Source: a virus. Taken from it: DNA of 64,000 nt. How positions within the stretch are numbered: position 1 is the first letter of the stretch; each line of letters begins with the position of its first letter. The notes under the pieces are model-generated. The model ran no database searches. It saw only the letters and a list, made by a program, of their open reading frames with translations, and was not told where the DNA came from. The DNA lies in the IMG/VR virus record IMGVR_UViG_3300040770_000181, positions 3,173-67,172 of that record. One strand, 5' to 3'. Shown here one piece after another: positions 1,537 through 35,004 of the stretch. The translations under genes and the position numbers were made by a program.

Positions 1537-1540
1537 AATT

Positions 1541-1657: not shown

Positions 1658-1666
1658 AATAACAAT

Positions 1667-1822: not shown

Positions 1823-1827
1823 GAAGT

Positions 1828-17473: not shown

Positions 17474-18229
17474 ATGGAATATAAATTCATAAGTTGCAAA
17501 TGCGTTACCTATGGAAGAGTTGATCTACTTGAGGAAGCTATACAAAGCTTTCTCAAGCAAGATTACCCTGCTGATAGATGTGAATTAATCATAGTGAATG
17601 ATTATCCTTTACAAACGCTTGTTTATAACCATCCAAACATCACAATTATAAACATGCCTAAAACTTTTACCACTATTGGTGATAAAGAACAATATGCTAC
17701 ATATATGTGTGCTGGAGACATTATCTGCCAATGGGATGATGATGATATTGCATTACCAAATCATTTAAGTAACGTCAATAAATATTTTACAGATGAAACT
17801 AATATCCTTCATTGGAAAAATGGTATATTTTATAATGAACCTCATATTACTGCTATTACTTTTGTTGGTAATTCTGGCATTGTTTTCAGAAAATCAGCAT
17901 GGGAAGCTATAGGAGGACATCCTCTTGAAAATGCTGGTTATGATATGACTTTTATTGAATCTTTAAATGCATATGGAGGAAGAACTTTTGCTGAACCTCC
18001 TAAACCAGAAGCTAGTTGGATATATAGATGGCATATGAGCTCTGCTGATTTGTATCATCAATCAGGTATGGGAACTGATGTTCCTGGTAGACCAAATATT
18101 TTAGAAAGGCATTCGCAACATATAGAGATTCTTAGATTAAAAGGAAGAATACCCACAGGAGAAATTAAATTAAAACCTTATTGGCGCCAAGATTATGTTC
18201 AACTGTTAAAAGAATTTATTGATAAATAA
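17474..18229 (+). CDS. Glycosyltransferase family 2
   Basis: ISCKCVTYGR..LLEEAIQSFLKQDY...ELIIVND and WDDDD GT-A motifs. Confidence 0.85.
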   Translation: MEYKFISCKCVTYGRVDLLEEAIQSFLKQDYPADRCELIIVNDYPLQTLVYNHPNITIINMPKTFTTIGDKEQYATYMCAGDIICQWDDDDIALPNHLSNVNKYFTDETNILHWKNGIFYNEPHITAITFVGNSGIVFRKSAWEAIGGHPLENAGYDMTFIESLNAYGGRTFAEPPKPEASWIYRWHMSSADLYHQSGMGTDVPGRPNILERHSQHIEILRLKGRIPTGEIKLKPYWRQDYVQLLKEFIDK

Positions 18230-18989: not shown

Positions 18990-19172
18990 TTATATTGGAG
19001 CTATTGTTGTAGTCGTTGTTGTTGTAGTTGGTCCACAACATTCGTATGATACAATTTCTTGCCATTTTCCCACTTTTGGTTTATTTTTACGAAGAATTAA
19101 ACTTCCTGCTACAACTCTTCCGCTTCCATCGATGCGAACAAAGGCCTTTAGGTCTCTCTTACTTGTACTCAT
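18990..19172 (-). CDS. 60-aa protein with C-terminal poly-Thr tail (CCGPTTTTTTTTIAPI)
   Basis: ORF track; Thr run uses mixed ACT/ACA/ACG codons. Confidence 0.75.
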   Translation of the reverse strand: MSTSKRDLKAFVRIDGSGRVVAGSLILRKNKPKVGKWQEIVSYECCGPTTTTTTTTIAPI

Positions 19173-19183
19173 AATAATTGTAT

Positions 19184-20200
19184 TTAATAATTAATGTTAT
19201 ATTTTGTTTGTAATTCTTTTAATTTATTTGCATAATAAGAAGTGCAATATTTTTTTGATTCTTCACTATTTATAACAATATCTATCTGAGTGTCTAACAT
19301 TGGATTTAGACCAGTATGATATTTTCCTTTATAAAAAGCAGGATAACCATTTCCCATTTCAGAAACAATCCCTGCATTGTGAAATATAGTGTTTGTTTTT
19401 AATTTTTCAATAGAATCTGAGGCCCATGCAAAGTTTAATTCAGGTACCACTTTAGTTTCTTGATTTCTTAACCAAAGATTCCAAAGAACAGCCCACATAT
19501 CTGCACACCAGGATTGAAAACCACTATTTTCATCTGCAAAGAATTCTCTATTTACTTGACCAAGATATGTTCTGATTAGAATACAATCATTCATAACCTT
19601 ACTCCAGTAATATGAATCTACATTCTTTAAGAGATATTGAGCACCTCCAGAATGTAAATTATTGTTTTCAGCTATCTTTCTATCGATTCCGATAATTGCA
19701 CATAGCTCGCCCAGTATATCTCTACTTTTATATTCTTCAAGCTTATCTGGTAACACCTGGTTAACTTTACTGTCAAAATAGTCTGCATTTATATAACTGT
19801 TAGTATCTGAAAGATAATGTACATCATCTTCAAGAAATTTATCAATATTAAAATCTTTCATAAAAAGAATATCAGAGTCACAATAAAAAATTGCTTTGTT
19901 ACTCATCTCAGGACGTTCTTTAAAATACTTCCAAGCAGTGTAAGGTCTTAATACAGGTATATAAATACCTAATAAAGAATTTACATCATCCTCATCAGTA
20001 TAAAAGTTAAATTCCGCCTCAGGATATAAACTAATAATTTGATCCCATTTAGTATTTTGAGTTCTACCTTTAGGAACAAACAAAAGCACAATAGCTTTAT
20101 CTGAGTGTCCTAAGTCTCTTAAGCTGTCAAGCCAAAGATGCACTTGCCAAGTGTAATACGTATCATCTGGGCAAATTGTTAGAAATTTTAAATCTTTCAT
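19184..20200 (-). CDS. GT-A glycosyltransferase resembling peptidyl-serine alpha-galactosyltransferase / Hyp O-arabinosyltransferase (GT96/GT95-like)
   Basis: YYTWQ, YIPVLRP, CDSDIL (DxD), HSGG, WCADMW, IFHNAG in the same order as the plant SGT1/HPAT motifs. Start moved to Met 20200 because the promoter element covers the 20227 start. Confidence 0.65.
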   Translation of the reverse strand: MKDLKFLTICPDDTYYTWQVHLWLDSLRDLGHSDKAIVLLFVPKGRTQNTKWDQIISLYPEAEFNFYTDEDDVNSLLGIYIPVLRPYTAWKYFKERPEMSNKAIFYCDSDILFMKDFNIDKFLEDDVHYLSDTNSYINADYFDSKVNQVLPDKLEEYKSRDILGELCAIIGIDRKIAENNNLHSGGAQYLLKNVDSYYWSKVMNDCILIRTYLGQVNREFFADENSGFQSWCADMWAVLWNLWLRNQETKVVPELNFAWASDSIEKLKTNTIFHNAGIVSEMGNGYPAFYKGKYHTGLNPMLDTQIDIVINSEESKKYCTSYYANKLKELQTKYNINY

Positions 20201-20224
20201 ATATGTAATTATTGGTTTAATGTA

Positions 20225-20232
20225 CAAATATA
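20225..20232 (-). promoter_or_regulatory. Bacteroidota -7 promoter element TATATTTG upstream of the GT96-like gene
   Basis: Exact TAnnTTTG 24 nt upstream of Met 20200; -33 element not clear. Confidence 0.55.
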
Positions 20233-20247
20233 ATAAAATTATTTAAA

Positions 20248-20388
20248 TTATACTACTGTTGTAGTGGTAGTTGTGGTTGCAACTGATTTTTTAGTAGCAG
20301 CATTTATTTTTATTAATCTGTCTAATTGCTTAGATATTTGATATAATAATTTAGCTTCTGTGCTCATTCCTGCTTGTTTTGAATTCAT
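20248..20388 (-). CDS. 46-aa protein with C-terminal poly-Thr tail (MNSKQAGMSTEAKLLYQISKQLDRLIKINAATKKSVATTTTTTTVV)
   Basis: Manually translated; absent from the ORF track; fills the gap between lysozyme and GT; mixed Thr codons. Confidence 0.7.
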   Translation of the reverse strand: MNSKQAGMSTEAKLLYQISKQLDRLIKINAATKKSVATTTTTTTVV

Positions 20389-20406: not shown

Positions 20407-20904
20407 TTATATTTTTGTAAAGTATAAATTACTTTCTGCTTTTCTTCTTCTGATAAGTCCTCTTAATTGAACACCGTCTGCTGTTATGTATTTAGTTTCT
20501 ATCCATTTTCTAATAGAAGCTTCAGAAGCTCTGTTGTTTATTAATTTATACAATGTAGAAGACCCACCTGTATTATAAACATAAGAAACCAAAGCATCAA
20601 ATTGATTTTGATTTAAAGGAACTTTTATTTTTTGCATAACAATATGCTCTCTAGGATCTAAATCTTGTAACATTAATTTAGTAGCTTCTGCTTTAGTTTT
20701 AACTTTTGCTGATTTATATGCCAAAGCTTTATTAGCAATTCCTTTTAAAAAATTACCTTTAGAATCACGCATAGCATGACCATATCCTTCAGTCCATATA
20801 CCAATTGGATCCATTTTTGGTTGTAAACCAATCATAGTTAAATCTCCATCATGTAAAGACTCAAATTCTTGAATTAATTGTATTCCTACATTACTCGTTT
20901 TCAT
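20407..20904 (-). CDS. Endolysin, GH24 phage lysozyme
   Basis: Catalytic E...D...T (EFE...DPIGIWTEGYGH), LNQNQFDALVS, GLIRRRKAE. Confidence 0.9.
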   Translation of the reverse strand: MKTSNVGIQLIQEFESLHDGDLTMIGLQPKMDPIGIWTEGYGHAMRDSKGNFLKGIANKALAYKSAKVKTKAEATKLMLQDLDPREHIVMQKIKVPLNQNQFDALVSYVYNTGGSSTLYKLINNRASEASIRKWIETKYITADGVQLRGLIRRRKAESNLYFTKI

Positions 20905-22251: not shown

Positions 22252-22259
22252 TATATTTG
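22252..22259 (+). promoter_or_regulatory. -7 element TATATTTG for the multidomain glycosyltransferase gene
   Basis: Exact TAnnTTTG 24 nt before ATG 22284; divergent from the lysis promoter. Confidence 0.65.
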
Positions 22260-22283: not shown

Positions 22284-25200
22284 ATGCCAACAAGCTATAC
22301 TGTTTTTAAAGAAGAAATTAAAGATTATTTCTTAAAAAATGTGCCAAATTCTAAAAGAATTTTGGATGTAGGACCAGGGGAAGGAACATATTCTACCCTC
22401 CTAAATAATATGGGGTATCAAATAGATGCTATAGAAATATGGAGACCATATATTGAAAAATATTCACTTAGAGAAAAATATGATAATGTATATTTAGGAG
22501 ATATATTAGAATTTAATGTAGAAAACTATGATTTTATTATATTAGGAGATGTTCTTGAACACATTCCTGTTAAATTAGCTCAAGAACTTATAAACAAATT
22601 TCAAAGAAAAGGTATAGAATATATGGTAGCAGTTCCTTATATGATGGAACAAGGAGAATGGGGTGGTAATATACATGAAACTCATTATCAGCCAGATCTT
22701 ACACCAGAAAATATGTTAGAAAGATACCCATCTTTAGAATTACTTTATTCTAATGAATGGTATGGTTATTATATTTCTAAGAATATAAAAGTAGAAAAAG
22801 CATATGTATTATATGCAAATGCAGCTTATTTTAAAACTGTACAAGGATGTGTAGCTTCTATAAAAGCTGTAAGTGATTTACCAATATTTGTTTATTTAAT
22901 GAATTTTAATGCAAAAATTGAAGGAGCTAAAACTGTTTATTGGAATTGTGATATTAAGGAAAATATTCAATCTGATTATATTGATAGGTCTGATCCTAAT
23001 ATTTATAATATTCTTATACAAAGACCTGAAATTGTTAAACATTGTTTGCTTAATTACGCAGATACAGTGGCATACATTGATTCAGATTCTGTTGCTACAC
23101 ACAATGTAGATAAAATCTTTTCTTTAGCTCCTAAGCAAGCTGTACACCCTTATTTTGTAGAAGGAATGTATGATTGGTTACAATATAATGGTAAAGGAGG
23201 AGTAGAAGATGAAACTGAATATCATAAAAGCCTTGAATACCCTGCATGTGAATTATTTAATGTTAATCAATTTGTTAGAAAAAAATATAGACAAACAGGT
23301 TATTTTGTAGCATCTAAATGGAATATTAAATTTCTTAATGAATGGATATGGATGTGTAATCACCCTGAAGTTAAGCAAAATCCACAATTATATGCTCCTT
23401 ATAATGAAGAAACTCTTCTTAATGTTTTGTTGTGGAAACATAATATACAAGTGGGACTTCCTTATTTATATGTTAATGGTAATCTTGAAACAATTAAAAA
23501 CATAAATAATAATGAATCTATTGAAGAAAAAGATTGGTTTAGATTAGTTAAAAAAGAAGATATATTATTTTTTCATGGAGAAAAATCATATTCTAAAATG
23601 ATAGAAATGACAGAAGAAATTGGTAAACATGAAACTAAATTAACAATTTTATTTTTAGCTCCCCATTTATCTACAGGAGGTATGCCTGCTTTTTTATTAG
23701 AAAGAATAAAAGGACTATTAAATTTAGGACATGAAATATTTGTTATAGAATATCAAAACTATAGTATGGATTTTGTTGTTCAACGTAATGCCATTATAGA
23801 ATTAATTGGTAAATCAAGTTTTTATACTTTATCTGAAAATAAAAAAGAATTATTAAACATTATTAATGATATTAATCCAGATATAGTTCATATTGATGAA
23901 ATGTCTGAAAGATTAGATAATTCTGTTATAAAAGAACTGTATGATTCTAATAGATCTTATAGAATTATAGAAACATGTCATGATATTTCTTTTAATCCAG
24001 AAACTAAACACTTTACACCAGACGCCTATGCTTTTTGCACTCCTTATCATTTGGATACTTTTAAAGATAATCAAGGGGAAAAATCAGTAATTGAATTTCC
24101 CATAAATCCCACTGTGTTCTTTCAAGCAGGAGCACAAGCAGTATTAGGAATGGACCCTAAGAAAAAACACATAGTTAATATTGGTTTGTGGACTTCAGGT
24201 AAAAATCAAAAAGAAATGTTGCTTGTAGCAAAAAATATGCCTGAACATGAATTTCATTTTGTAGGTAATCAAGCTGGTAATTTTGAATCTTATTGGAAAC
24301 CTTTAATGGAGACCCTCCCCCCCAATGTTACTGTATGGGGAGAAAGATCAGATGCACATACGTTTATGGAAGCAGCTGATATTTTTATGTTCAATTCTAC
24401 TTGGGAATGTAATCCTCTTGTATTAAGAGAAGCTATAGGATATGGTAAATCTATTATTGCTAGAAATCTCCCTCAATACAAAAACATGTTTATTTCGTAT
24501 ATAGAAGATTTATCTGATGTACATTTAAAAGAACAAGTGAAATATTTAATTAAAAACCCTGCTAGATATTGGGTTCCAACTAATAACACTTCTATTCACT
24601 TTGCAGAAAATCATGTAAATCTATACAAAAAAATTATGAAACAAAAACCACAACAACAGATAAACACTTCTTATCAAATACACCAACATTTTGTTGGACA
24701 GCCTTTTATTGAAATAACAGGAGATTCTAAATCACTTTTTACAGTGGAATTTTGGGATAAAGAGGAATTAATACATGCAGCAAAAATAACTGTCAATAGT
24801 TGGGTAAAAGTTAATAGAGAGTATTACACAGATTGGATTACCAGAATTTATAAAGATGATGTCTTAGTATATGATAAACCATTAGACTATACTGGTAAAA
24901 GAGTTTATATATCATTTGATAGTTCTTCTTTAGGAGATACTATAGCTTGGTTCCCTTATGTAGAAGAATTTAGAAAAAAACATAATTGTACTGTTATAGT
25001 TTCTACGTATAAAAATTTCCTTTTTAAAGAATCTTATCCAGAGCTTGAATTTGTTGAACCAGGAACAGTAGTAAACAATATATTTGGTATGTATAAACTT
25101 GGGTGGTTCTATGATGATAATAAGGAACCAGTTCTTCCTAATACAATTCCTTTACAACAAACAGCCACTAACATATTAGGTTTAGAATATACTGAAATTA

Positions 25201-25718
25201 GACCAAAAATCAGTTTTAAAAAAACTATATCAGGTCCTCAAAGTTATGTAGCTATAGCAACTAACTCTACAGCTGGTTGTAAATTTTGGACAAAAGAAAA
25301 TTGGCAAGCAGTTATAAATTATCTTGTTAACTGTGGATATAACGTAATTAACACTTCTTTAGAAGATAATTCTTTTACTAACTGTGCAACTCTTACAGAT
25401 AAATCAATAGAAGGAACTATGTCATGTATTTCTAATAGTGAATTCTTTATAGGATTGTCATCAGGGTTATCATGGTTAGCATGGACATTAAATAAAGAAG
25501 TTATAATGATTTCTAACTTTACTGAGGAAAATCATGAATTTAAATGTCATAGACCTATAGTAAAAAGTGTTTGTCATGGATGTTGGAATAATAAAAATTT
25601 CAAATTTGATAAAGGAGATTGGAATTGGTGTCCTATTAACAAAGGCACTGACAAACAGTTTGAATGTCAATCCTCTATCACTCCTCAAATGATAATAGAA
25701 ATAATTGATTCTTTATAA
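22284..25718 (+). CDS. Four-domain enzyme: class I SAM methyltransferase + GT-A fold GT + GT4 + TibC/Aah-like autotransporter heptosyltransferase (GT9-like)
   Basis: LDVGPGEG; YIDSDS; LFLAPHLSTGG...NSTWECNPLVLREA; SSLGDTIAW...GLSSGLSWLAW...CHGC-x15-C-x11-C. Confidence 0.85.
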   Translation: MPTSYTVFKEEIKDYFLKNVPNSKRILDVGPGEGTYSTLLNNMGYQIDAIEIWRPYIEKYSLREKYDNVYLGDILEFNVENYDFIILGDVLEHIPVKLAQELINKFQRKGIEYMVAVPYMMEQGEWGGNIHETHYQPDLTPENMLERYPSLELLYSNEWYGYYISKNIKVEKAYVLYANAAYFKTVQGCVASIKAVSDLPIFVYLMNFNAKIEGAKTVYWNCDIKENIQSDYIDRSDPNIYNILIQRPEIVKHCLLNYADTVAYIDSDSVATHNVDKIFSLAPKQAVHPYFVEGMYDWLQYNGKGGVEDETEYHKSLEYPACELFNVNQFVRKKYRQTGYFVASKWNIKFLNEWIWMCNHPEVKQNPQLYAPYNEETLLNVLLWKHNIQVGLPYLYVNGNLETIKNINNNESIEEKDWFRLVKKEDILFFHGEKSYSKMIEMTEEIGKHETKLTILFLAPHLSTGGMPAFLLERIKGLLNLGHEIFVIEYQNYSMDFVVQRNAIIELIGKSSFYTLSENKKELLNIINDINPDIVHIDEMSERLDNSVIKELYDSNRSYRIIETCHDISFNPETKHFTPDAYAFCTPYHLDTFKDNQGEKSVIEFPINPTVFFQAGAQAVLGMDPKKKHIVNIGLWTSGKNQKEMLLVAKNMPEHEFHFVGNQAGNFESYWKPLMETLPPNVTVWGERSDAHTFMEAADIFMFNSTWECNPLVLREAIGYGKSIIARNLPQYKNMFISYIEDLSDVHLKEQVKYLIKNPARYWVPTNNTSIHFAENHVNLYKKIMKQKPQQQINTSYQIHQHFVGQPFIEITGDSKSLFTVEFWDKEELIHAAKITVNSWVKVNREYYTDWITRIYKDDVLVYDKPLDYTGKRVYISFDSSSLGDTIAWFPYVEEFRKKHNCTVIVSTYKNFLFKESYPELEFVEPGTVVNNIFGMYKLGWFYDDNKEPVLPNTIPLQQTATNILGLEYTEIRPKISFKKTISGPQSYVAIATNSTAGCKFWTKENWQAVINYLVNCGYNVINTSLEDNSFTNCATLTDKSIEGTMSCISNSEFFIGLSSGLSWLAWTLNKEVIMISNFTEENHEFKCHRPIVKSVCHGCWNNKNFKFDKGDWNWCPINKGTDKQFECQSSITPQMIIEIIDSL

Positions 25719-25749: not shown

Positions 25750-26970
25750 TTAATAATCAGATTCAATATACATTCTATTTACACCAACAGAAGCTGCAGT
25801 GGCACCAGCATTAGTTGCACCAGGCCCTATTGCACAAGTTGGTATAAGAAGAGCTGTTGTAGTTGGTAAATCTAAAGTTATAGAACTATCTATTAATGTC
25901 ACATTTGATGAAAGATCATCTATTCTATAATAAACAACTGAATCATTTGGTTTACAATAAATAAAGAAATCATAAACATTGTTAGTTGCTAATGCTGGTT
26001 GAACAGCAATAGTTTCTTTTATAGCAACCCCCACTCCATCATTGTGCATAAAAGAAATAGCAGTATCTGCTGTATCAACAGCAAATCCCAACATATTAAA
26101 TTTAGTAGAAGGATCTGCAGTTAATAATGCTGTTGTATCTACACACATTCCTACAAATAATCTATTAGTAGGTGTCCATGTATTAAATCCAGCTCTACAA
26201 AAAAAGAAAAACCCTCCTGAAGTAGGAATTGCTCCTCTGTAAAAGATTGGTTCTCCTCTTAAACTGTTCATAGTATTAACACCTGTTGCAGCAGTAAATG
26301 TATTTTTTCTTAAAGAAGTGTATCTATTTGTTGTAGATGGTAATACAGAAACTCCTGCAACTATAGCAGTTACAAGGGAACCTATCATATATCCTGAAGT
26401 TGCTCCTGGGTTCCACATTACAACGTTATTTTTAAACAAAGCAGCTTGAAAAGGAGTGTCAGCTCCAGTGGGACCTTTCCATTTAGGAAGCATTCTTCCA
26501 GCAACATTTTTTGAATAAATTCTAACACCATTAACAGAAGGAGCAGCAGGATCTGCAATACCATCAAAATCTTGATATTTAGAAATATTTAAAGTTTCTA
26601 AAACTGAAGATAATATAGTTCCAAGACTCCACCCTATTCCAGACTCATAAAACATTGTTGCTCCTGGAATTAATAAAACTTCTCCTGTTCCTAAATATTC
26701 TATTCCAGAAACATCTTTAAGAACAGAAATAAGATTTGAAGTTGTTAAATTTTTGTTTCTAATAAAAATAGATTTAAGTTGTCTAGATATCCCTGTAGCA
26801 GGAGCAGGACAAATTATAGTAGTACCTATTGTTGTTATTTTTCCTTGTGCTGACCCTGGAACTGCTGAAACAAAAGGATCAATATCTACGTAATTTACTT
26901 GATAGTCTATATCAGCAATGGAAGTTGTTTTAATTCTAAAACTTTCGTTATTATTTTGTAAAAATATCAT
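25750..26970 (-). CDS. Putative tail/fibre-associated structural protein
   Basis: C-terminal half is paralogous to the C-terminus of the 30823 fibre (VRIYSKNVAGRMLPKW vs [16 protein letters not shown]). Confidence 0.6.
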   Translation of the reverse strand: MIFLQNNNESFRIKTTSIADIDYQVNYVDIDPFVSAVPGSAQGKITTIGTTIICPAPATGISRQLKSIFIRNKNLTTSNLISVLKDVSGIEYLGTGEVLLIPGATMFYESGIGWSLGTILSSVLETLNISKYQDFDGIADPAAPSVNGVRIYSKNVAGRMLPKWKGPTGADTPFQAALFKNNVVMWNPGATSGYMIGSLVTAIVAGVSVLPSTTNRYTSLRKNTFTAATGVNTMNSLRGEPIFYRGAIPTSGGFFFFCRAGFNTWTPTNRLFVGMCVDTTALLTADPSTKFNMLGFAVDTADTAISFMHNDGVGVAIKETIAVQPALATNNVYDFFIYCKPNDSVVYYRIDDLSSNVTLIDSSITLDLPTTTALLIPTCAIGPGATNAGATAASVGVNRMYIESDY

Positions 26971-26974
26971 ATTA

Positions 26975-29900
26975 TTATAATTTTAATGTGTTGATTGAAT
27001 AATTTCTTGCAAAGTTAAAGGAAATTCCTGAAGTTCCACTAGTACCAGATGATCCAAATGTTGTTCCAGATGACCCAGATGTTCCAGTAGTTCCTGCTGT
27101 ACCGCTTGTTCCACTTGTTCCACTAGTTCCTAAAGAAGCAAATATTCCAGCATTTACAGCGTCAACAGTGGGATATTTTGATCCAGAACCATCAGTAACT
27201 AAAGAATCTTGTTTATTAAAAAGATTTTCTTTAACTGTTATATCTGGCACTACAACTTCTGCCCAACCTAAATTTTTTCTTGCATATTGTTTATTATCTG
27301 AAGGAGCCTCTAATACAGGATTAAGTTCTTTTAACTTATCCTCAATAAGAAATGAAGTTGTTTTTTTATTAAGAAGCTCATACTGAGTTGTTTCAATATA
27401 ATTATCTAAATTATATTCAGCAGCACCTGTAGTTTCATTAAAAGTAAGTTGTTTATTGTTTTGTGATATAAAAAATTCATTAAGAAGAGTAATTTGTCCA
27501 GAAACATATCCCAAATATTTTCCAGAACTTAATTGATTTAAACTCAAATATTCTTGTCCAACTGTTCTACTAACAAAACTTGGTGGAACTATAAATACAC
27601 TTCCGTCTGTATTTAAAACTATAGATTTATTAATTGTAACTCCATTATAAGATGTTTGAGAATTATAAGAAGTAAAATTACCTGTTATAAGTAATTTTCC
27701 ATTTGTAGTTAAAACTATTGTAAAAATCTCAAGATTAAAACCAGTTCCTGTTACAAATGAAGTATCTATAGATCCATCTAAATTTAATTTAACAATTCTC
27801 CCTGCTGGTGTACCATTATAGAATGTCATAGTTCTCCCATACACATATAACTTTCCATCAAGAGCATATAATAATCTATGATAATTAGTACCTGTTCCAG
27901 TAACACTAATACCTGTACCAACATTAAAAGTAGTGTCTCTACTACCATTAGAAAGTATTTTAACTATAAGTGGAGAACTAAAACCATTAAATGTAGGAGC
28001 ATAAGTAGTAACATACACTCCACTGCCATCAGCAGCTGCTAATGCATCAGTTACTGCAGACCCGTTACCCCAAACGCCTGTTGCAAAAGTAAGATCTCTA
28101 AGCCCATCAGCGGATATTCTAATTAAATTAGAACCAGCACTTCCTCCAAAAGTAGTAAAAAACCCACATACATAAATTTGTAGGTTATCTGGAGTAAAAG
28201 ACATACCTTGAACACTACCATTTGCACCTCCAAAAGTATTAAAAGCTAAGTCTACTGAACCATCAAGATTAAATCTAGATATTCTATTTTTCCCCACACC
28301 ATTTATTGATGTAAAATCACCTCCTATTAAAAGTTTTTTTGTTACAGGATCTTCTAAAATAGAGTTAGAGGAAAAAGCATTACCATTCATTGCAGTTGGC
28401 GGCTTAAAACTTGAATCTATAAGTCCATCATTTTTTATTTTAATTACATATTGTGCTTGAATTCCAGCATAAGATATAAAATTACCATAAGCATAAAAAC
28501 CACCACCAGTAGCTTGATAAATATCAGCAATAAAATTATTAGTAGGTAAAAATATTCCAGGATTGTAAAAAGTTTTAAGAAGTTGAATTTTATCTGCTGT
28601 CTTATTTACAGTGATAACATCCTGTAAACTTTTTTTAACAAAGGGAATAGTTTTATTATCAAACCATTCTTTGGTTATTACTGATCTTTCTTCTAAATCA
28701 ATTCCAACAATAGTAGAAAAAGGCAACGTAATAGTATTAACACCTAAATTAATTTTATTAGATTTAGTTATTAATCCTTCTTCATTTAAAGTAAGTAAAT
28801 TAGTAAAAGTAATTGGAGGGCTTATTTTAACTAATTTATTAAGAGGTAAAAATACACCAAAAATATTATTTAAAGCATCAACTTCAATATGTCTTAACTC
28901 TTCAGTAGATGATAAAATCTCAGTTATTGCACCAGTTGTTTTAGAAATTTTATGAATTAAATTAGGAGCACCTGTTTCTGGTTTTCTTGATGTAGCTATT
29001 ATATCTTCTTGAGGAGTAAGTGCAGTATAATAAGGTTGATTGCCAACAGGAAATGTAGCCAATGTTGAAAAAACTCCACTAGCAGATATTTTAGACAAAG
29101 TTCGAGTTGAATTTACACTTGCAAAGTATAAATTATTATCTTTATCACATAATGGTCTTGTCCACCAAGCAGTATTAGGAAAAGGTATATTAGATCTTAC
29201 TTTATCAGGAGTCCATTTATCTGCACCACCAGGAGGATATAAATTTTGTACGTATAAATTATCTAAATTATCTAATTTAAAAGGAGCTTTATCATCACTA
29301 GTATAGCCATTAACACTGAAATTTAAATAAGTAGCTACAACTCCAGCAGGAGATATTTTAACAATTTTATCAGTGTCAAAGCTAAGTGAAGGAACTTGAG
29401 CAAATAAATTTCCTTGCTTATCAAATTCCAGAAAACTTACAAATTTTCCTGGAATAGCAAATACTGTTACTACACCACTTTGAGTCATTTTATATATAGT
29501 TCCTGAAACGTAATGTGATATAAAAATATTGCTATTAGCATCAATTACTAAATCAAAATGATCATCATTAAATGGAGTACTTCCTAATACACTACTAGTG
29601 CCATTAGTATTAACTTTATAAACTTTACCTCCTCTAGTTAATACATATGTAATTCCAGTAGTTTTATCTATTTTAAAAGCTCTAAGTTCAGATTGTATAG
29701 TAGCTGGTCCAGGTTCTAATATAATAAAATCTGAAATACTATATGCAGTAGTTTGTAAATTTTTTAATTGGGTAAAAGTCAATCCAGAATTTTCTAAAAT
29801 ACCACTATTAATAATCACAGGTTTTACTACAGAAATGTTGCTAATATTTTCTAAAATACTACTATCAACATAACCTCCATTTAAATATTTAGGTAAATAA

Positions 29901-30442
29901 TTATTAGTACCTTGTGCTGCTGGTATGTCACTTAAAGTAGCTAAAGTGTAAACCCCTCCAGATTTTTTAGGAGCATAAAAGTAATTATTAGCATTTAAAT
30001 CAGGATGTAATAAAAATGTGTTTTGAAAACTATCTCTAACAACATTAAAACCGTAAGTAGTTGGATCAAATGATGCTCTTTGAATTTCTCCAAACCAATC
30101 AATACTACCTGTAAAAGCAGCTACACCTATTCCTATAACAGTTTTACTTTTAAAAGGATTTGTTCCACTTGCATCTAATATAATATTTTTATCAATTGCA
30201 CTATTTCCGTTAGTTAATACAGATTCTAAATTTTGATTTCCTCCTACAGCTAATAAACCTTGATTAACTGCATCAACTGTTGCATATTTAGTTCCAGTAC
30301 CATCAAAAACTAAACTATTTTGTTTGTTAGAAATTTCTTCTTTATTTAATAAAGAAACCCAAGAACCATCTCCTCTTAACCAATTTGATAAATCAGGAGT
30401 GCCTATCATACCTAAATCTGCAATTTTAATTTTACCAGCCAT
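26975..30442 (-). CDS. Tail fibre / receptor-binding protein with NHL-like and delta-60-like beta-propeller repeats, foldon-like motif and short GTS tail
   Basis: WLRGDGSW N-terminus; repeats such as GGDFTSING..RISRFNLDGSVD; EAPSDNKQYARKNLGW; terminal GTSGTS run. Confidence 0.7.
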   Translation of the reverse strand: MAGKIKIADLGMIGTPDLSNWLRGDGSWVSLLNKEEISNKQNSLVFDGTGTKYATVDAVNQGLLAVGGNQNLESVLTNGNSAIDKNIILDASGTNPFKSKTVIGIGVAAFTGSIDWFGEIQRASFDPTTYGFNVVRDSFQNTFLLHPDLNANNYFYAPKKSGGVYTLATLSDIPAAQGTNNYLPKYLNGGYVDSSILENISNISVVKPVIINSGILENSGLTFTQLKNLQTTAYSISDFIILEPGPATIQSELRAFKIDKTTGITYVLTRGGKVYKVNTNGTSSVLGSTPFNDDHFDLVIDANSNIFISHYVSGTIYKMTQSGVVTVFAIPGKFVSFLEFDKQGNLFAQVPSLSFDTDKIVKISPAGVVATYLNFSVNGYTSDDKAPFKLDNLDNLYVQNLYPPGGADKWTPDKVRSNIPFPNTAWWTRPLCDKDNNLYFASVNSTRTLSKISASGVFSTLATFPVGNQPYYTALTPQEDIIATSRKPETGAPNLIHKISKTTGAITEILSSTEELRHIEVDALNNIFGVFLPLNKLVKISPPITFTNLLTLNEEGLITKSNKINLGVNTITLPFSTIVGIDLEERSVITKEWFDNKTIPFVKKSLQDVITVNKTADKIQLLKTFYNPGIFLPTNNFIADIYQATGGGFYAYGNFISYAGIQAQYVIKIKNDGLIDSSFKPPTAMNGNAFSSNSILEDPVTKKLLIGGDFTSINGVGKNRISRFNLDGSVDLAFNTFGGANGSVQGMSFTPDNLQIYVCGFFTTFGGSAGSNLIRISADGLRDLTFATGVWGNGSAVTDALAAADGSGVYVTTYAPTFNGFSSPLIVKILSNGSRDTTFNVGTGISVTGTGTNYHRLLYALDGKLYVYGRTMTFYNGTPAGRIVKLNLDGSIDTSFVTGTGFNLEIFTIVLTTNGKLLITGNFTSYNSQTSYNGVTINKSIVLNTDGSVFIVPPSFVSRTVGQEYLSLNQLSSGKYLGYVSGQITLLNEFFISQNNKQLTFNETTGAAEYNLDNYIETTQYELLNKKTTSFLIEDKLKELNPVLEAPSDNKQYARKNLGWAEVVVPDITVKENLFNKQDSLVTDGSGSKYPTVDAVNAGIFASLGTSGTSGTSGTAGTTGTSGSSGTTFGSSGTSGTSGISFNFARNYSINTLKL

Positions 30443-30822: not shown

Positions 30823-33800
30823 TTATTGATCGGTTTCTATATACATTGAACAAATGTCTAATCCCACTGCTAATGCTGTTGCATTATTAGTTCGCCATGC
30901 TCTAGGAGTAAGTAATATAGTTGAATTAGAAATTTGTGTAGTTGGTGTTAAATTAAGCACTCCTGTTACTGTTACTTGTGTTCCTAAATTTTTAATTTCA
31001 TACCCTATTCTACCAGCAAAGTTAGGATATGAAAATAATACAATATCCCAAGCGGTATTTGTTAATGTTGGTGCTCCTAATGCTGTACCCATAGGAATAG
31101 GAGTTTGTGCAATAGATCCTCCATAAAAAAAGTACCATTGTGTAGCATCAGTAGATAATTGTCCAAATCCCATTGCATTTAATAATGTACTTGGTTCAAC
31201 ATTAGTAGGAGAAGATACGTTACCGTGCATTCCTATAAACATTCTTGCTCCTGCAACAACAGCTGCATCTGAAATTACAATTCTTTCCATATAAGTAAAC
31301 CCACCAAGACCTGTTCCATCCCCTGTAGTAAATTGAGACCCCGTTGCTGCATAAAAATGTCCACATAAACCTCCAGCAGTTGCTACTGAAACATAACCTA
31401 ATCTTTTAATTCTTGTAGCAATATTTGTTACAGCAACGTTTCTTGTTGTAGCTGTACCAACAACAACTGCTGTAGAAACCCCTGTTTGTATAGGAGCTGT
31501 TGTTGCATTTCCTAAAGGTTGCCAATAAACTGCTCTGTTTCTTCCCCAATGAGGTTGTAATACAGAGTCTAAACCAGATGGAGCAATAAAAGCAGGAAGT
31601 AATCTTCCACCTACAGATCTAGCAAAAATAGATAATGCTCCTAATGGTGGTATTGGAGGAGTAACAACAGTAGCATTTAAATTTAAAGAATTATTTGTAT
31701 CATCATAAATACAAACATCTATAATACTCCAAGCTCCTGCAACAGCAACACCTATACGAAGTGCTTGCCCTGGTAATAATATAAAAGGAAGATTAATAGC
31801 AAGTCCGTCTATAGTTTCCCCTGTTGCAGGATAAACATCTAATGTGTTTAAACCACTATTTACAACAGTAATCATATCACTTAAAACTGCAGATGGTAAT
31901 ATTACACCACTATCTAAAGGAGTAGTTGTTATTGTATTTACTTTAGCAGTTAATAATAACGCATTTCCTTGTACAGTCCCTGTTGCAGCTAAAGATGTAT
32001 TATAAGTAAAACTATACCCACCACCACCAGCACCAGATGTACCAGAAGTACCTGTTAACCCTGAACTACCCGAAGTACCAGCAGTTCCAGAAGTTCCAAC
32101 AGCACCTGTTAATCCAGAAGAACCAGATGTACCTGTAGTTCCACTAATTCCGCTAGTTCCAGAAGTACCAACAACACCATTTACACCATTTGTTCCACTA
32201 GTTCCACTTGTACCTGTACCTCCATTTAAACCAGAAGTTCCAGATGTTCCAGTAGTACCTGATGTGCCATTTACACCTGTTAAACCACTAGTTCCTGTTG
32301 TACCTGAACTACCACTAGTTCCTGTAAGCCCTGATGATCCAGAGGTTCCCGATGTACCAAGACTAAGACCTGATGAACCACTTGTTCCAGTAGTTCCTGA
32401 CGTTCCACTAGTACCAATTGCTCCATTAATCCCAGAAGTTCCACTAGTGCCACTAGTTCCTTCAACACCGTTAATACCACTAGTCCCTGATGTACCAGTA
32501 ATACCAGAAGTTCCACTTGTACCGCTAGTACCACTTGTACCTACAATTCCATTAATACCACTTGTACCAGATGTGCCAGATGTTCCTGTTACGCCATTAA
32601 TTCCACTAGTGCCAGATGTGCCACTAGTTCCATTTACTCCAGAAGTACCTGAAGTTCCTGTTGTGCCACTTGACCCTGATACTCCATTTATTCCAGAAGT
32701 ACCAGAAGTACCACTTGTTCCAGATATACCAGAAGTACCTGTTAATCCACTTGTTCCATTAACACCAGAAGTGCCTGTTAAACCAGAACTACCAGATGTC
32801 CCTGTTGTACCACTTGTTCCTAAAACACCATTAACACCACTTGAGCCACTTGTGCCTGAAGTTCCAGAAGTACCAGAAATTGCACTAGTTCCTGAACTAC
32901 CACTAGTTCCTATTAATCCATTAAGTCCAGAAGTTCCTGATGTGCCATTACTGCCAGTAATTCCACTTGTTCCAGTAATTCCACTTGTTCCATTTAATCC
33001 AGATGTGCCAGAGCTTCCAGAAGTTCCATTAGAACCTGCAGGTCCTTGAGATCCAACAAAAATATTACTTCTTACATAAGAAACACTGTTTGTTCCATCG
33101 TAAGTTAAACATATATTTCTTGGACCACCACCTGCAGTTTTTAATGCAAAATATTTAACAATTAATCTATCAGTAGTTAATAAAGTAAATCCTGGTTGTG
33201 TTATTGTAGAAGTATAAAGAGTTGTAACAAGCCCCATTATATCTCCTGTAGATCCTGAAAATAATTGAGTTTCCGTTCCACCTAAATCTCTTTTATATAC
33301 ACGAATAACTATTTCATTAGTTCCTCCAGAAGAATCAATATTAGCATATGTTCTAAATACCCATGGACCTGCTGGAATTTCCTCAACTCCTGGTTTACCT
33401 GATATTGTTACAAAAGATTGAATTAAAACTTCTCCACTAGACGTAGTTATAGACTGACAATTTGTTATTTCTGTATTAACAGGAACAAAAAGTCGTAAAT
33501 CTTTATAAGGAACAATATCAGAATTGACATTGTGTAAATACCAAAATTGAGGAATAGCCTGGTCTCCATTTAAACCAGAAGTACCTGCACTTCCACTAGT
33601 ACCACTAGAACCACTAGTACCACTAGATCCACTGGATCCTGCAGTACCACTACTGCCTGTTGTTCCAGACGTAGCAGATGTTCCAGATGTTCCTGTTGTA
33701 CCAGATGTACCTGTTGTACCACTTGTGCCATTTAAAGCAGAAGTTCCTGAAGTTCCATTTGTACCATTTATAGCGGATGTTCCTGATGTACCATTTATTC

Positions 33801-35004
33801 CAGAGCTACCAGATGTTCCTGAACTTCCAGATGTTCCAGTAGTTCCATTAATACCAGATGTTCCTGAAGTACCATTAATACCTGAAGACCCACTAGTTCC
33901 AGTTGTTCCTGAACTACCTGATATACCATTAGTTCCATTTACAGCACTAGTTCCACTAGTTCCTGTTGTACCTGAAGTACCATTATTTCCAGTTGAGCCA
34001 CTTGATCCACTTGTTCCACTTGTTCCAGTTGTTCCACTTGTTCCAGTTAAACCACTACTTCCTGACGTTCCTGAAGTGCCTGTAGTTCCACTAGTACCAT
34101 TTGTTCCGTTAATTCCATTAATACCACTAATTCCACTTGTTCCTGATGTACTACTAGTCCCAGAGGTTCCATTAGTCCCTAAAACAGAAATTCCACTTGT
34201 ACCAGAAGTTCCTAGTGTTCCATTAATTCCTGAACTTCCTGAACTTCCTGAAGATCCTCCATCTGTTGATACATTGTAATAAACAAATAAAGATTGAGAA
34301 GGGTCAGGAGCAGTAACCATAGTTATTGTATTTCCTAAAACTGTATAATCTATTCCATTATATTGTGTAACACCATTTTGAATTACTATAACTGCTGCTG
34401 GATTGGTAGGAATCTCTAATAAAGTAAAAATTTTATTAACACCATCTATAATTCCAATAGGAGTTTCTGATTTTGTAATACTTGAACTTCCAGAACTTCC
34501 TGACGTTCCTGTTGTACCAGATGTACCATCAAATCCTTCTTTACCATTAGTTCCTGATGTACCATCAATTCCTGAAGTACCTGATGTGCCAGTTAAACCA
34601 CTAGAGCCACTTGTTCCAACAGATCCGCTTGTTCCTGCTGAACCACTTGTTCCATTAACGCCACTACTACCAGAAGTTCCATCTGATCCATTTATACCAC
34701 TAGTACCATTTATACCAGAAGTTCCATCTACTCCACTAGTCCCATCTACTCCAGTGGTACCATCTAAACCATTAATACCTGATGTACCTGATTCACCAGA
34801 AGTTCCACTAGTGCTAGATAATCCTGAAGAACCAGAAGTTCCTGCAGAGCCTGAAGTTAATAAAGCAAGATCTATTTTTTCTAATGCTGTCTGAAAAGAA
34901 TCATTAGTATTAATACCTGTATAAATAAGATTAGCCCCCTCGTAAAAAACGCATTGGGAGCTAAGAATTATTGGGCAAGCATCTGGTGTACAAATTATTG
35001 ACAT
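30823..35004 (-). CDS. Tail fibre with three long Gly-Thr-Ser collagen-like blocks separated by globular domains
   Basis: Gly-X-Y periodicity ([12 protein letters not shown]) over roughly half of 1393 aa; Cys-containing N-terminus; globular C-terminus. Confidence 0.8.
32020..33050 (-). repeat. GTS Gly-X-Y repeat block 3
   Basis: Degenerate 9-nt tandem repeats. Confidence 0.9.
33565..34260 (-). repeat. GTS Gly-X-Y repeat block 2
   Basis: Degenerate 9-nt tandem repeats. Confidence 0.9.
34481..34858 (-). repeat. GTS Gly-X-Y repeat block 1
   Basis: Degenerate 9-nt tandem repeats encoding GTS/GSS/GID triplets. Confidence 0.9.

What the first reader, a model, noticed from the sequence alone, without database searches (positions are those of the whole stretch)
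22284..25718. Four-domain MTase-GT-GT4-TibC-like 'glycan assembly line' enzyme
Seen: SAM MTase (approx. 22284-22780), GT-A with DSD (approx. 22800-23590), GT4 (approx. 23640-24640) and a C-terminal domain with SSLGD and Cys1097/1100/1116/1128 (C-x2-C-x15-C-x11-C). Established: TibC/Aah autotransporter heptosyltransferases use an LGD catalytic Asp and a four-Cys Fe site (C339/342/358/370 as I recall, the same spacing) and glycosylate Ser in repetitive passenger domains. Chlorovirus A064R fuses GT domains with a methyltransferase for capsid glycan synthesis. Inference: a single polypeptide that initiates, extends and methyl-caps a glycan. ADP-heptose is not universal in Bacteroidota, so the donor may be different.
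Basis: partly seen in the sequence, partly recalled or inferred. Interest (0 to 1): 0.8.

Follow-up and report, generated by a model that had tools for sequence, protein, structure and literature searches.

The report
Phage four-domain fibre-glycosylating enzyme
A bacteriophage carries one 1144-residue protein that joins a methyltransferase, two sugar-adding enzymes and a relative of the E. coli adhesin heptosyltransferase TibC, and it sits beside tail-fibre genes made almost entirely of Gly-Thr-Ser repeats, so the phage probably sugar-coats its own fibres.

Summary
ORF 22284-25718 (+) encodes 1144 aa with four folded domains:
- a class-I SAM methyltransferase (1-165);
- a retaining GT8-like GT-A (170-448, D266xD268, H431);
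- a GT4 GT-B (452-788, E708x7E716);
- a TibC/Aah-type (BAHT) domain (797-1144).

The BAHT domain matches TibC at phmmer E=9e-45 and VIA Z=38, rmsd 2.1 Å. It scores 251 bits on NCBIfam TIGR04414 (cut-off 200). It keeps the catalytic Asp (D885), T996/K1000/W1064 and Cys1097/1100/1116/1128. It lacks the β-hairpin thumb that builds the TibC dodecamer, and the adenine-reading Arg-286 is Thr.

The contig is an 81-kb phage fragment. No autotransporter was seen among the ORFs examined. The nearby genes on the opposite strand are proline-free (Gly-Thr-Ser)n collagen-like fibres.

This pairing recurs. It holds in 36 of 51 related loci, and most of the others examined carry other Ser/Thr-rich repeat proteins. 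It also holds in Microcystis phage Mel-JY01 and in a 735-kb phage. In the reverse test, 12 of 44 viral contigs chosen only for a (GTS)5 DNA pattern encode a BAHT, against 1 of 46 Gly-Pro-X controls (p=7e-4).

The N-terminal modules are swapped among relatives, while GT4-BAHT is the constant core.

Best reading: a cytoplasmic enzyme that O-glycosylates the phage's own fibres. Donor sugars are unknown. I class it as a new variant of a known kind.

The parts
22284..25718 (+). Whole gene: 1144-aa four-domain enzyme (P0001). It is the only + strand gene between two - strand blocks. It has no predicted TM helix and no signal peptide.
   Evidence: maximum Kyte-Doolittle 19-aa window 1.46. The AF2 full-length model has mean pLDDT 86.9 and pTM 0.48, so the domains are confident but their mutual orientation is not.
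22284..22778 (+). Domain 1: class-I SAM-dependent methyltransferase (aa 1-165). Motif I is D28-V-G30-P-G32-E-G34.
   Evidence: Pfam PF13489 scores 29.3 bits (cut-off 27) and PF08241 26.3 bits (cut-off 21.2). PDB 3cc8 matches at E=8.6e-6. The motif is invariant in 42 homologues.
22791..23627 (+). Domain 2: retaining-type GT-A, GT8-like (aa 170-448). It has the DxD D266/D268 and the HGEK His431.
   Evidence: No Pfam hit. AF2 gives pLDDT 89 and pTM 0.90. Foldseek's best matches are GT8, GT24 and GT6 retaining GT-A enzymes at TM about 0.5, E 1e-7 to 2e-9. Only 330 representatives occur among 1.84 billion proteins.
23637..24647 (+). Domain 3: GT4-family GT-B glycosyltransferase (aa 452-788). The EX7E motif is E708...E716.
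   Evidence: Pfam PF00534 scores 36.9 bits (cut-off 26.4). VIA Z is 25-29 over 300-320 residues to HepE, BshA, MshA, PimA, PglA, WaaG and SdgB. E708 and E716 are invariant.
24672..25715 (+). Domain 4: BAHT (TibC/Aah-type) protein O-glycosyltransferase domain (aa 797-1144). It has an N-terminal β-barrel (about 797-866), the catalytic D885, donor contacts T996/K1000/W1064, and the Cys4 site C1097/C1100/C1116/C1128. The thumb is deleted at about 1029-1033, and Thr1045 replaces TibC Arg-286.
30823..35004 (-). Candidate acceptor: 1393-aa tail-fibre-like protein. It has at least 216 Gly-X-Y triplets in runs of 6 or more (X = T 55%, S 16%; Y = S 60%, T 14%, N 14%), with 1 Pro and 11 charged residues in the repeats.
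   Evidence: Pfam Collagen 7e-87. PHROG tail-fibre families score up to 4e-87.
26975..30442 (-). Second candidate acceptor: 1155-aa β-propeller (DUF5122) fibre protein with a short C-terminal Gly-Thr-Ser tract (aa about 1103-1140).
25750..26970 (-). 406-aa protein convergent with the enzyme gene. Its C-terminal domain is a paralogue of the C-terminal globular domain of the 1393-aa fibre.
   Evidence: BLASTP E=7e-15; phrog_13925 at 6e-19
17474..18229 (+). Separate GT2-family glycosyltransferase gene in the same neighbourhood. It is conserved upstream in relatives L007, L008 and L009.
   Evidence: Pfam PF00535 2e-8
19184..20227 (-). 347-aa conserved phage protein (phrog_4417). It is a possible further peptide O-glycosyltransferase (HPAT/GT95-like). 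This is a lead only.
   Evidence: the atlas feature search places a cluster in which 10% of members carry PF23452 HPAT at score 0.97; no Pfam or NCBIfam hit

Best explanation
This is a soluble, cytoplasmic, phage-encoded modular glycosylation enzyme.

Proposed mechanism:
- The C-terminal BAHT domain, a thumb-less phage-type relative of TibC/Aah, transfers a first sugar from a nucleotide sugar made by the host onto Ser/Thr hydroxyls. The likely targets are the phage's own repeat-rich fibre proteins, above all the proline-free (Gly-Thr-Ser)n collagen-like fibre encoded about 5 kb downstream (30823-35004). This happens before or during virion assembly.
- The GT4 domain and then the GT8-like retaining GT-A domain extend the glycan.

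What is shown and what is inferred:
- Shown by computation: four intact domains with conserved catalytic motifs; membership of the BAHT family by sequence and fold; strong and reciprocal genomic association with Ser/Thr-rich fibre genes; modular exchange of the N-terminal domains.
- Inferred: the acceptor, the order of action, the donor sugars and the biological pay-off. The pay-off could be triple-helix stabilisation, protease or antibody shielding, or receptor specificity.
For: (1) Domain identities and intact active-site motifs.

(2) The BAHT catalytic base and three of four donor-binding residues defined for TibC (PMC4358343) are invariant or nearly invariant in 120 homologues.

(3) The context is a phage with no autotransporter among the ORFs examined. 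The contig is an IMG/VR virus record. It carries lysozyme, PhoH, RecA, collagen-like tail-fibre ORFs, and a 4679-aa ORF with a DFDID motif.

(4) Synteny: in the window and in L002, L003, L004, L007 and L009 a G-[ST]-[ST] collagen ORF lies within about 1-7 kb, convergent with the enzyme gene. Across 80 IMG/VR loci, 36 of 51 with at least 6 kb downstream have one. Of the 14 loci lacking one that I examined, 9 carry (T-P-T-x)n mucin-like proteins, 'STIGGG..NTASG' repeat proteins or a short Gly-Ser/Thr tract.

(5) Independent lineages with only 38-43% BAHT identity:
- Cultured Microcystis phage Mel-JY01 has a GT4...BAHT protein of 1226 aa flanked by GSS/GTS collagen ORFs.
- The 735-kb phage LR756501 has GT4 and GT4-BAHT genes beside a GSS/GTS ORF.

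(6) Reverse test: 12 of 44 viral contigs chosen only by a (GGN-ACN-WSN)x5 DNA pattern encode a BAHT (E 1e-65 to 1e-189, varied architectures). Only 1 of 46 contigs chosen by a (GGN-CCN-NNN)x5 pattern does. Fisher p=6.8e-4, odds ratio 17.

(7) No TM helix or signal peptide, so the enzyme and the nascent fibres share the cytoplasm.

(8) Precedents:
- Chlorovirus A064R (two sugar-adding domains plus a methyltransferase) and A111/114R (PMC7826918).
- SgtA glycosylating the collagen-like BclA3 (PMC7157674).
- Mycobacteriophage virion glycosylation, cited in papers listed.
Against: There is no biochemical or proteomic evidence. Gene adjacency is partly explained by shared ancestry within one phage clade.

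15 of 51 related loci lack a collagen-type acceptor within 10 kb, and phage LR756504 has a stand-alone BAHT with no Ser/Thr-rich ORF within 12 kb.

Known BAHT substrates are β-helical autotransporter passengers, not collagen-like chains.

The adenine-binding Arg is lost and the thumb is deleted, so donor and quaternary structure differ from the characterised enzymes.

A separate HPAT-like candidate (19184-20227) could be the true priming enzyme.

The contig is only about 70% complete, so other acceptors or pathway genes may be missing.
Confidence: 0.6

Rival explanations
1. The enzyme modifies host molecules rather than the virion. It would glycosylate host surface proteins, adhesins or envelope glycans during infection, for example to block superinfection or alter receptors, as seroconverting phages do.
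For: The characterised BAHTs act on bacterial surface adhesins. Phage-encoded sugar-adding enzymes that remodel host O-antigen are well known (established knowledge). The gene stands alone on its strand, next to a lysis-type gene (lysozyme 20407-20904).
Against: The association is with phage-encoded Ser/Thr-repeat fibre genes, in several lineages and in the reverse test. No integrase or lysogeny gene was seen among the ORFs scanned. A four-step soluble cytoplasmic enzyme with no membrane anchor is not typical of O-antigen-modifying Gtr-type systems.
Confidence: 0.12
2. The enzyme does glycosylate phage proteins, but the main acceptor is not the collagen-like fibre. Candidates are the capsid, the β-propeller protein, or small poly-Thr-tailed proteins near 18990-20388. 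Alternatively the BAHT domain is not the initiator: a different enzyme (the HPAT-like ORF or the GT2) primes, and the four-domain protein only elaborates.
For: Other Ser/Thr-rich proteins replace collagen in some relatives. An HPAT-like lead exists for ORF 19184-20227. First-reader notes report poly-Thr microproteins (not checked here). In mycobacteriophages the known acceptors are capsid and tail-tube proteins (literature cited).
Against: The BAHT domain is the only domain here with clear homology to a protein O-glycosyltransferase. The GTS collagen association is specific when compared with Gly-Pro-X collagen contigs.
Confidence: 0.15
3. The protein is a canonical ADP-heptose-dependent dodecameric BAHT, as first suggested, with extra domains fused to it.
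For: It scores above the TIGR04414 equivalog cut-off. It keeps D110, T226, K230, W305, F368 and Cys4. Residue 300 is Ser, as in Aah, which accepts both heptose epimers.
Against: Arg-286 is replaced by Thr (Thr in at least 90% of 120 homologues). There is a 10-residue deletion of the thumb whose tip residues are required for dodecamer formation and activity in TibC. No gmhA, hldE-type or other NDP-sugar genes lie on the contig.
Confidence: 0.1
4. The enzyme acts on a non-protein acceptor: phage DNA hypermodification, or a free or lipid-linked oligosaccharide.
For: GT-B enzymes glucosylate DNA in T-even phages (established knowledge). The fused MTase family is generic.
Against: The BAHT domain is a close structural relative of a protein Ser O-glycosyltransferase (Z 38). 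No hydroxymethyl-pyrimidine pathway genes were seen. There is no membrane anchor for lipid-linked synthesis.
Confidence: 0.03

Closest known systems
TibC / Aah (BAHT family; PDB 4RAP, 4RB4; NCBIfam TIGR04414)
   Same: The fold matches, including the N-terminal β-barrel (Z 38.3, rmsd 2.1 Å over 343 aa, 29% identity). The catalytic Asp, Thr/Lys/Trp donor contacts, Phe-368 and the four Cys of the iron finger are kept with identical spacing. Ser at position 300 matches Aah.
   Different: Here it is the C-terminal domain of a four-domain phage protein, not a stand-alone enzyme next to an autotransporter gene. The β-hairpin thumb is deleted. Arg-286 is Thr. The likely acceptor is a collagen-like or other Ser/Thr-repeat fibre. 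The donor is unknown.
Chlorovirus PBCV-1 A064R and A111/114R
   Same: These are virus-encoded single polypeptides that combine several sugar-adding domains, and in A064R a sugar O-methyltransferase, to build a glycan on a virion protein (PMC7826918).
   Different: The resemblance is in design; homology was not tested. The hosts are eukaryotic algae, the glycans are N-linked on the capsid, and there is no BAHT-type initiating domain.
Mycobacteriophage virion glycosylation (phage-encoded enzymes modifying capsid and tail-tube proteins)
   Same: Phage-encoded enzymes O-glycosylate the phage's own structural proteins in the host cytoplasm (literature cited by papers; my knowledge of Freeman et al. 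2023).
   Different: Those are separate small enzymes. There is no BAHT domain and no collagen-like acceptor, and the hosts are Actinobacteria.
Glycosylated bacterial collagen-like proteins BclA (B. anthracis) and BclA3/SgtA (C. difficile)
   Same: Thr-rich Gly-X-Y repeats are O-glycosylated by a dedicated enzyme encoded next to the collagen-like gene (PMC7157674).
   Different: Those are spore surface proteins of Firmicutes. SgtA is not a BAHT. Their repeats contain Pro (GPT), whereas the repeats here are essentially Pro-free.
Retaining GT4 enzymes (HepE, BshA, MshA, PimA, PglA, WaaG; SdgB, which glycosylates Ser-Asp repeats)
   Same: Domain 3 shares the GT-B fold (Z 25-29) and the EX7E motif.
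   Different: Sequence identity is only 12-19%, so donor and acceptor cannot be transferred.
GT8 / GT24 / GT6 retaining GT-A enzymes (galactinol synthase, glycogenin, LPS α-galactosyltransferase RfaI, UGGT)
   Same: Domain 2 shares the GT-A fold with a DxD motif and a C-terminal His.
   Different: TM is only about 0.5 and identity 11-16%. It matches no Pfam model. The family is small (330 representatives) and occurs mostly inside multidomain proteins.

Membership tests
BAHT (TibC/Aah autotransporter O-heptosyltransferases) | Scores above the curated family HMM threshold (NCBIfam equivalog TIGR04414) | tested here: met
   251 bits against a cut-off of 200, covering aa 820-1143. phmmer against TibC gives E=9e-45.
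BAHT (TibC/Aah autotransporter O-heptosyltransferases) | Protomer fold: N-terminal flattened β-barrel plus an atypical GT-B catalytic domain | tested here: met
   VIA Z 38.3, rmsd 2.1 Å, 343 aa aligned; model 797-1144 against TibC 22-386. There are 7-8 β-strands at 797-866.
BAHT (TibC/Aah autotransporter O-heptosyltransferases) | Catalytic base Asp-110 in the LGD motif | tested here: met
   D885 aligns with D110 and is invariant in 42 homologues.
BAHT (TibC/Aah autotransporter O-heptosyltransferases) | Donor contacts Thr-226, Lys-230 (β-phosphate) and Trp-305 (heptose O4) | tested here: met
   T996, K1000 and W1064 are aligned and invariant.
BAHT (TibC/Aah autotransporter O-heptosyltransferases) | Arg-286 contacting adenine N1 (the basis of ADP specificity; R286A is inactive) | tested here: not met
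   It aligns with Thr-1045, which is Thr in at least 90% of 120 homologues. The position is variable in other phage BAHTs: Ile, Arg or Leu.
BAHT (TibC/Aah autotransporter O-heptosyltransferases) | Four Cys of the 1Fe-0S iron finger (C339/342/358/370) | tested here: met
   C1097, C1100, C1116 and C1128 have the same spacing and are invariant. Metal content cannot be tested here.
BAHT (TibC/Aah autotransporter O-heptosyltransferases) | β-hairpin thumb with a hydrophobic tip (Phe-265/Val-266) that mediates dodecamer assembly | tested here: not met
   There is a 10-residue deletion relative to an Aah-like enzyme. The deletion is shared by all four phage lineages compared. The model shows no hairpin at 1024-1040.
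BAHT (TibC/Aah autotransporter O-heptosyltransferases) | Dodecameric ring | not testable with these tools
   Needs SEC-MALS or cryo-EM.
BAHT (TibC/Aah autotransporter O-heptosyltransferases) | Encoded next to its autotransporter substrate (AIDA-I/TibA type) | tested here: not met
   The genome is a phage. The neighbours are collagen-like and β-propeller fibre genes. For contrast, see the E. coli plasmid locus L006, where the Aah-like gene abuts AIDA-I.
BAHT (TibC/Aah autotransporter O-heptosyltransferases) | Uses ADP-heptose | not testable with these tools
   No heptose or NDP-sugar pathway genes lie on the 81-kb contig. The host is unknown.
GT4 (Pfam Glycos_transf_1, retaining GT-B) | Pfam score above the gathering threshold, EX7E motif, GT-B fold | tested here: met
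   PF00534 scores 36.9 bits against 26.4. E708 and E716 are invariant. Z is 25-29 to GT4 structures.
GT8 (retaining GT-A) | Sequence membership (Pfam Glyco_transf_8) plus DxD and a C-terminal His metal ligand | tested here: inconclusive
   There is no Pfam hit and the profile-against-PDB search gives only E=1.1. The fold's best matches are GT8, GT24 and GT6 at TM about 0.5. D266, D268 and H431 are invariant. I therefore call it GT8-like, not a member.
Class I SAM-dependent methyltransferases | Rossmann-type fold with a GxGxG SAM-binding motif; Pfam score above threshold | tested here: met
   PF13489 scores 29.3 against 27, and PF08241 26.3 against 21.2. G30, G32 and G34 are invariant. The substrate (sugar hydroxyl) is inferred only.

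The most novel reading that the evidence does not exclude
Phages have recruited a thumb-less branch of the autotransporter heptosyltransferase family as a dedicated maturation enzyme for proline-free (Gly-Thr-Ser)n collagen-like fibres. Dense O-glycosylation of Thr/Ser would take the place of hydroxyproline in stabilising the triple helix, as glycosylated Thr does in Riftia cuticle collagen (my knowledge). The freely exchangeable N-terminal modules (different methyltransferases, GT32-like, GT9, and sulfotransferase neighbours) would diversify the outer glycan as a fast-evolving determinant of host range or of evasion. This would be a widespread and so far unstudied phage glycoprotein system, present in more than 500 IMG/VR contigs and in a cultured cyanophage.
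Probability: 0.3. Interest if true: 0.85.

Novelty: new variant of a known kind. Interest (0 to 1): 0.7.

Why it matters
BAHTs are known only as partners of proteobacterial virulence autotransporters. Here a large branch sits in phages: at least 531 IMG/VR contigs, and 2250 full-length-sized database proteins at E<=0.001. It lacks the dodecamer thumb, is fused to further glycan-building domains, and is statistically tied to extraordinary Ser/Thr-only collagen-like fibres.

If confirmed, four things follow:
- Phage virion glycosylation would extend well beyond mycobacteriophages, to aquatic phages, to phages with a crAss-type polymerase motif (DFDID), and to cyanophages.
- It would offer a natural single-polypeptide toolbox for protein O-glycan synthesis.
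- It would explain how a proline-free triple helix could be stable.
- It would point to a glycan layer on phage fibres that could affect adsorption, host range and immune recognition.

A cultured carrier, Microcystis phage Mel-JY01, makes the idea directly testable.

Tried and rejected
- PHROGs has no family for the four-domain protein.
- DNA search of 50,697 phage records found no near relative, only a 72-nt stretch in huge phages. tblastn found no cultured phage with the full architecture.
- A profile of domain 2 against PDB sequences gave only a marginal GT8 hit around the DxD (E=1.1). The domain had to be identified by fold.
- phmmer of the GT4 domain against PDB sequences gave only weak PglA hits.
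- Searches of the 81-kb contig for SIS_2/GmhA, PfkB, CTP_transf_like, Epimerase, NTP_transferase and rfaE domain II found nothing. The contig is about 70% complete, so this does not show that the phage lacks them. The control output did not tell me whether Bacteroidota make ADP-heptose.
- Homodimer prediction of the BAHT domain (2 copies, alignment A2) returned 'no answer', score 0.00. This is evidence neither for nor against oligomerisation.
- A Bacteroidota-type -7 promoter motif (TAnnTTTG) lies 25 nt upstream of the start (22252-22259). The motif is not enriched in the window (105 found against 111 expected), so I draw no conclusion on promoter or host. The sigma-70 and terminator scans were at background.
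- Literature searches found no paper on a phage BAHT or on glycosylation of phage collagen-like fibres in the held library.

Full report
**1. Observation**

The window is part of an 81,250-bp IMG/VR virus record estimated at about 70% complete. ORF 22284-25718 on the + strand is a single 1144-aa frame.

Pfam finds three of the four domains:
- a class-I SAM methyltransferase at aa 14-110;
- a GT4/GT1-type GT-B at aa 465-740;
- a weak Glyco_transf_9 hit at aa 984-1084.

phmmer against all PDB sequences aligns aa 827-1142 with TibC residues 51-384 at E=9e-45. NCBIfam's equivalog model for Aah/TibC scores 251 bits against a cut-off of 200.

- D266-S-D268;
- SSLGD at 881-885;
- Cys at 1097, 1100, 1116 and 1128, spaced x2, x15, x11.

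The TibC paper confirms the Fe ligands Cys-339/342/358/370 and the catalytic Asp-110 (PMC4358343).

**2. Domain dissection**

An AF2 model of the whole protein, built from 42 aligned homologues, has mean pLDDT 86.9 but pTM 0.48. That means four confident domains with undefined mutual orientation.

BAHT domain:
- Structural alignment to TibC (4RAP) gives Z 38.3, rmsd 2.1 Å over 343 residues. It covers model 797-1144 and TibC 22-386, so the N-terminal β-barrel is present.

GT4 domain (452-788):
- It matches retaining GT4 enzymes at Z 25-29: HepE, BshA, MshA, PimA, PglA, WaaG and SdgB.
- It has an invariant EX7E motif, E708/E716.

Domain 2 (170-448):
- It has no Pfam hit. Modelled alone it reaches pLDDT 89 and pTM 0.90.
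- Its best fold matches are retaining GT-A enzymes of GT8, GT24 and GT6 at TM about 0.5.
- D266, D268 and H431 (HGEK) are invariant.
- An exhaustive profile search found only 330 cluster representatives among 1.84 billion proteins. Many are embedded in other multidomain proteins. It is a small, undescribed GT-A subfamily.

The protein has no TM segment or signal peptide.

**3. BAHT features, one by one**

I used the residue roles given in PMC4358343 and alignments with TibC and with an Aah-like enzyme that abuts an AIDA-I gene on an E. coli plasmid (L006).

Kept, and invariant or nearly invariant in 42-120 homologues:
- D110 = D885;
- T226 = T996;
- K230 = K1000;
- W305 = W1064;
- F368 = F1126;
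- all four Cys.

Position 300 is Ser, as in Aah.

Two features are not kept:
- Arg-286, which contacts adenine N1 and whose Ala mutant is inactive, is Thr-1045. It is Thr in at least 90% of 120 homologues.
- The β-hairpin thumb, whose tip Phe-265/Val-266 is required for dodecamer formation and activity, carries a 10-residue deletion. The model has no hairpin there.

The thumb deletion is shared by three other phage BAHT lineages. This defines a thumb-less phage-type BAHT.

**4. Context**

- The + strand ORFs upstream include RecA, PhoH and a GT2 glycosyltransferase, plus weaker hits to ribonucleotide-reductase, gyrase-B-type ATPase and helicase domains.
- The enzyme gene is the only + strand gene between a - strand block with a lysozyme and a long - strand structural block.
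- That block begins with three genes: a 406-aa protein, a 1155-aa β-propeller protein ending in a short GTS tract, and a 1393-aa protein with Pfam Collagen at 7e-87 and tail-fibre PHROGs.
- The C-terminal domain of the 406-aa protein is paralogous to that of the 1393-aa fibre.
- The 1393-aa fibre has at least 216 Gly-X-Y triplets in runs of 6 or more. X is Thr/Ser in 71% and Y is Ser/Thr in 74%. There is one Pro and 11 charged residues, and codon usage is mixed, which argues for selection at protein level.
- No NDP-sugar or heptose pathway gene lies on the contig.
- A 4679-aa ORF carries a DFDID motif at residue 3539. That would suggest a Bacteroidota host, but it remains a lead.

**5. Relatives and modularity**

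- The full four-domain architecture occurs in more than 120 clusters at 55-68% identity. In all, 2250 proteins have E<=0.001. They lie on contigs up to about 120 kb.
- IMG/VR holds at least 531 contigs with a relative of the BAHT domain.
- Among the 80 closest loci the architecture varies: MT-GTA-GT4-BAHT, GTA-GT4-BAHT, or GT4-BAHT alone.
- Pfam shows the N-terminal modules replaced in some: FkbM-type methyltransferase, FkbM plus GT32-like DXD domain, or GT9 plus Methyltransf_24.
- Some loci add a stand-alone GT9-like gene, or APS kinase plus sulfotransferase plus a nucleotidyltransferase.
- GT4-BAHT is the constant core. It recurs in Mel-JY01 and in the 735-kb phage LR756501.

The modules farthest from the BAHT vary most. 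That is what one expects if the BAHT primes the glycan and the outer sugars and caps diversify. This is an inference.

**6. Which acceptor?**

Within the clade:
- A G-[ST]-[ST] collagen ORF lies convergent and downstream in the window and in L002, L003, L004, L007/L008 and L009.
- The same holds in 36 of 51 loci with at least 6 kb of downstream sequence.
- Of the 14 loci without one that I examined, six carry about 1000-aa (T-P-T-x)n mucin-like proteins divergent from the enzyme gene (S+T up to 0.64 over 80 aa). Three of those and two more carry 'STIGGG..NTASG' repeat proteins that resemble YadA-head repeats. One carries a short Gly-Ser/Thr tract.

Shared ancestry could explain synteny within one clade, so I looked outside it:
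- Mel-JY01 (39% BAHT identity) and LR756501 (43%) both have GSS/GTS collagen ORFs next to their GT4/BAHT genes. LR756504 does not.
- Reverse test: of 44 searchable viral contigs selected only for a (GGN-ACN-WSN)x5 DNA pattern, 12 encode a BAHT. The scores range from E 1e-65 to 1e-189 and the frames from 396 to 1458 aa, so several lineages are represented.
- Of 46 contigs selected for a (GGN-CCN-NNN)x5 pattern, 1 encodes a BAHT. Fisher p=6.8e-4, odds ratio 17.
- The control contigs were on the whole more complete, so the difference is not an effect of length.

**7. Mechanism proposed**

Shown by computation: four intact catalytic domains, a cytoplasmic location, and a reciprocal association with Ser/Thr-repeat fibres.

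Inferred:
- The BAHT domain O-glycosylates Ser/Thr of nascent fibre chains.
- The GT4 domain and the GT8-like domain, both of retaining types, add α-linked sugars.
- The methyltransferase caps a sugar, as in chlorovirus A064R (PMC7826918).

The donor for the BAHT step is open. ADP-heptose is possible because T226, K230, W305 and Ser300 are kept. It is less certain because the adenine Arg is lost and no pathway genes were found.

One plausible pay-off is stabilisation of a Pro-free triple helix by glycosylated Thr (my knowledge of Riftia collagen and BclA). Shielding and receptor specificity are alternatives.

**8. Comparison and novelty**

- By HMM score, fold and catalytic residues, domain 4 is a BAHT-family member.
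- It fails three family features: the thumb, Arg-286 and the autotransporter partner. It is therefore best called a phage-type BAHT variant.
- Multidomain viral sugar-adding and methylating enzymes (chloroviruses), phage virion glycosylation (mycobacteriophages), and glycosylated bacterial collagen-like proteins (BclA, BclA3/SgtA; PMC7157674) are all known.
- The combination here, and the BAHT-collagen link, were not found in the literature searched.
- Automatic pipelines already label these proteins 'autotransporter strand-loop-strand O-heptosyltransferase'. That label is misleading for a phage.

**9. Relation to earlier notes of this scan**

Earlier notes on the same window had already proposed a virion O-glycosylation locus and flagged the GTS fibre. 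The cross-lineage and reverse-association tests here are independent checks of that idea.

**Verdict**

It is a new variant of a known kind, with interest 0.7.

Noticed in passing
L007:13425-16614 (relative; between the enzyme gene and its 2219-aa GTS fibre): This relative carries an extra cassette: a small nucleotidyl(adenylyl/cytidylyl)transferase, an APS kinase, a sulfotransferase and a 289-aa protein with a GT9-like C-terminal motif. That suggests some relatives sulfate the glycan or add further sugars.
   Followed up: partly
L047:2526-5840, L053:879-4130, L074:1138-4077, L082:2087-5416 (relatives): These relatives carry about 1000-aa proteins with long (T-P-T-x-T)n mucin-like tracts (S+T up to 0.64 per 80 aa), divergent from the enzyme gene. 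They occur in loci that lack the GTS collagen ORF, and an extra stand-alone GT9-like gene accompanies them.
   Followed up: partly
L021:10241-13216, L069:17162-21031, L072:17010-21053 (relatives): These relatives carry large fibre-like proteins built of 'STIGGGxxNTASG' repeats of about 14 residues. The repeats resemble the head (Hep_Hag) repeats of trimeric autotransporter adhesins. I did not check them with an HMM.
   Followed up: no
L005:2-3049 (+) versus annotated CDS 739-2298 (-) in Microcystis phage Mel-JY01 (PP395634.1): A 1016-codon open frame with 202 Gly-X-Y triplets (S+T 0.40) runs on the + strand, while the deposited annotation places a hypothetical CDS on the opposite strand. The collagen-like gene is probably annotated on the wrong strand. 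The BAHT-containing 1226-aa protein is annotated only as 'methyltransferase FkbM'.
   Followed up: partly
window 39882-53921 (-): This 4679-aa ORF contains a DFDID motif at residue 3539. I did not examine it further.
   Followed up: partly
window 19184-20227 (-): This conserved 347-aa phage protein (phrog_4417) has no Pfam or NCBIfam hit. It is conserved in L002, L003, L007 and L009. The atlas feature search places it near a cluster in which 10% of members carry the HPAT (GT95) family. It may be an additional peptide O-glycosyltransferase.
   Followed up: partly
window 25750-26970 (-) and 30823-35004 (-): The 406-aa protein and the 1393-aa fibre share a C-terminal globular domain of about 300 aa (24% identity, E=7e-15), and both end in MYIE[ST]D. 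This may be a duplicated distal or receptor-binding module.
   Followed up: partly
P0101 (database homologue, 112,468-bp contig): A four-domain homologue is deposited at NCBI under a 'Cytophagia bacterium' MAG. It lies on a contig of phage-genome size, so it is probably a phage contig binned with, or infecting, a Bacteroidota host.
   Followed up: no
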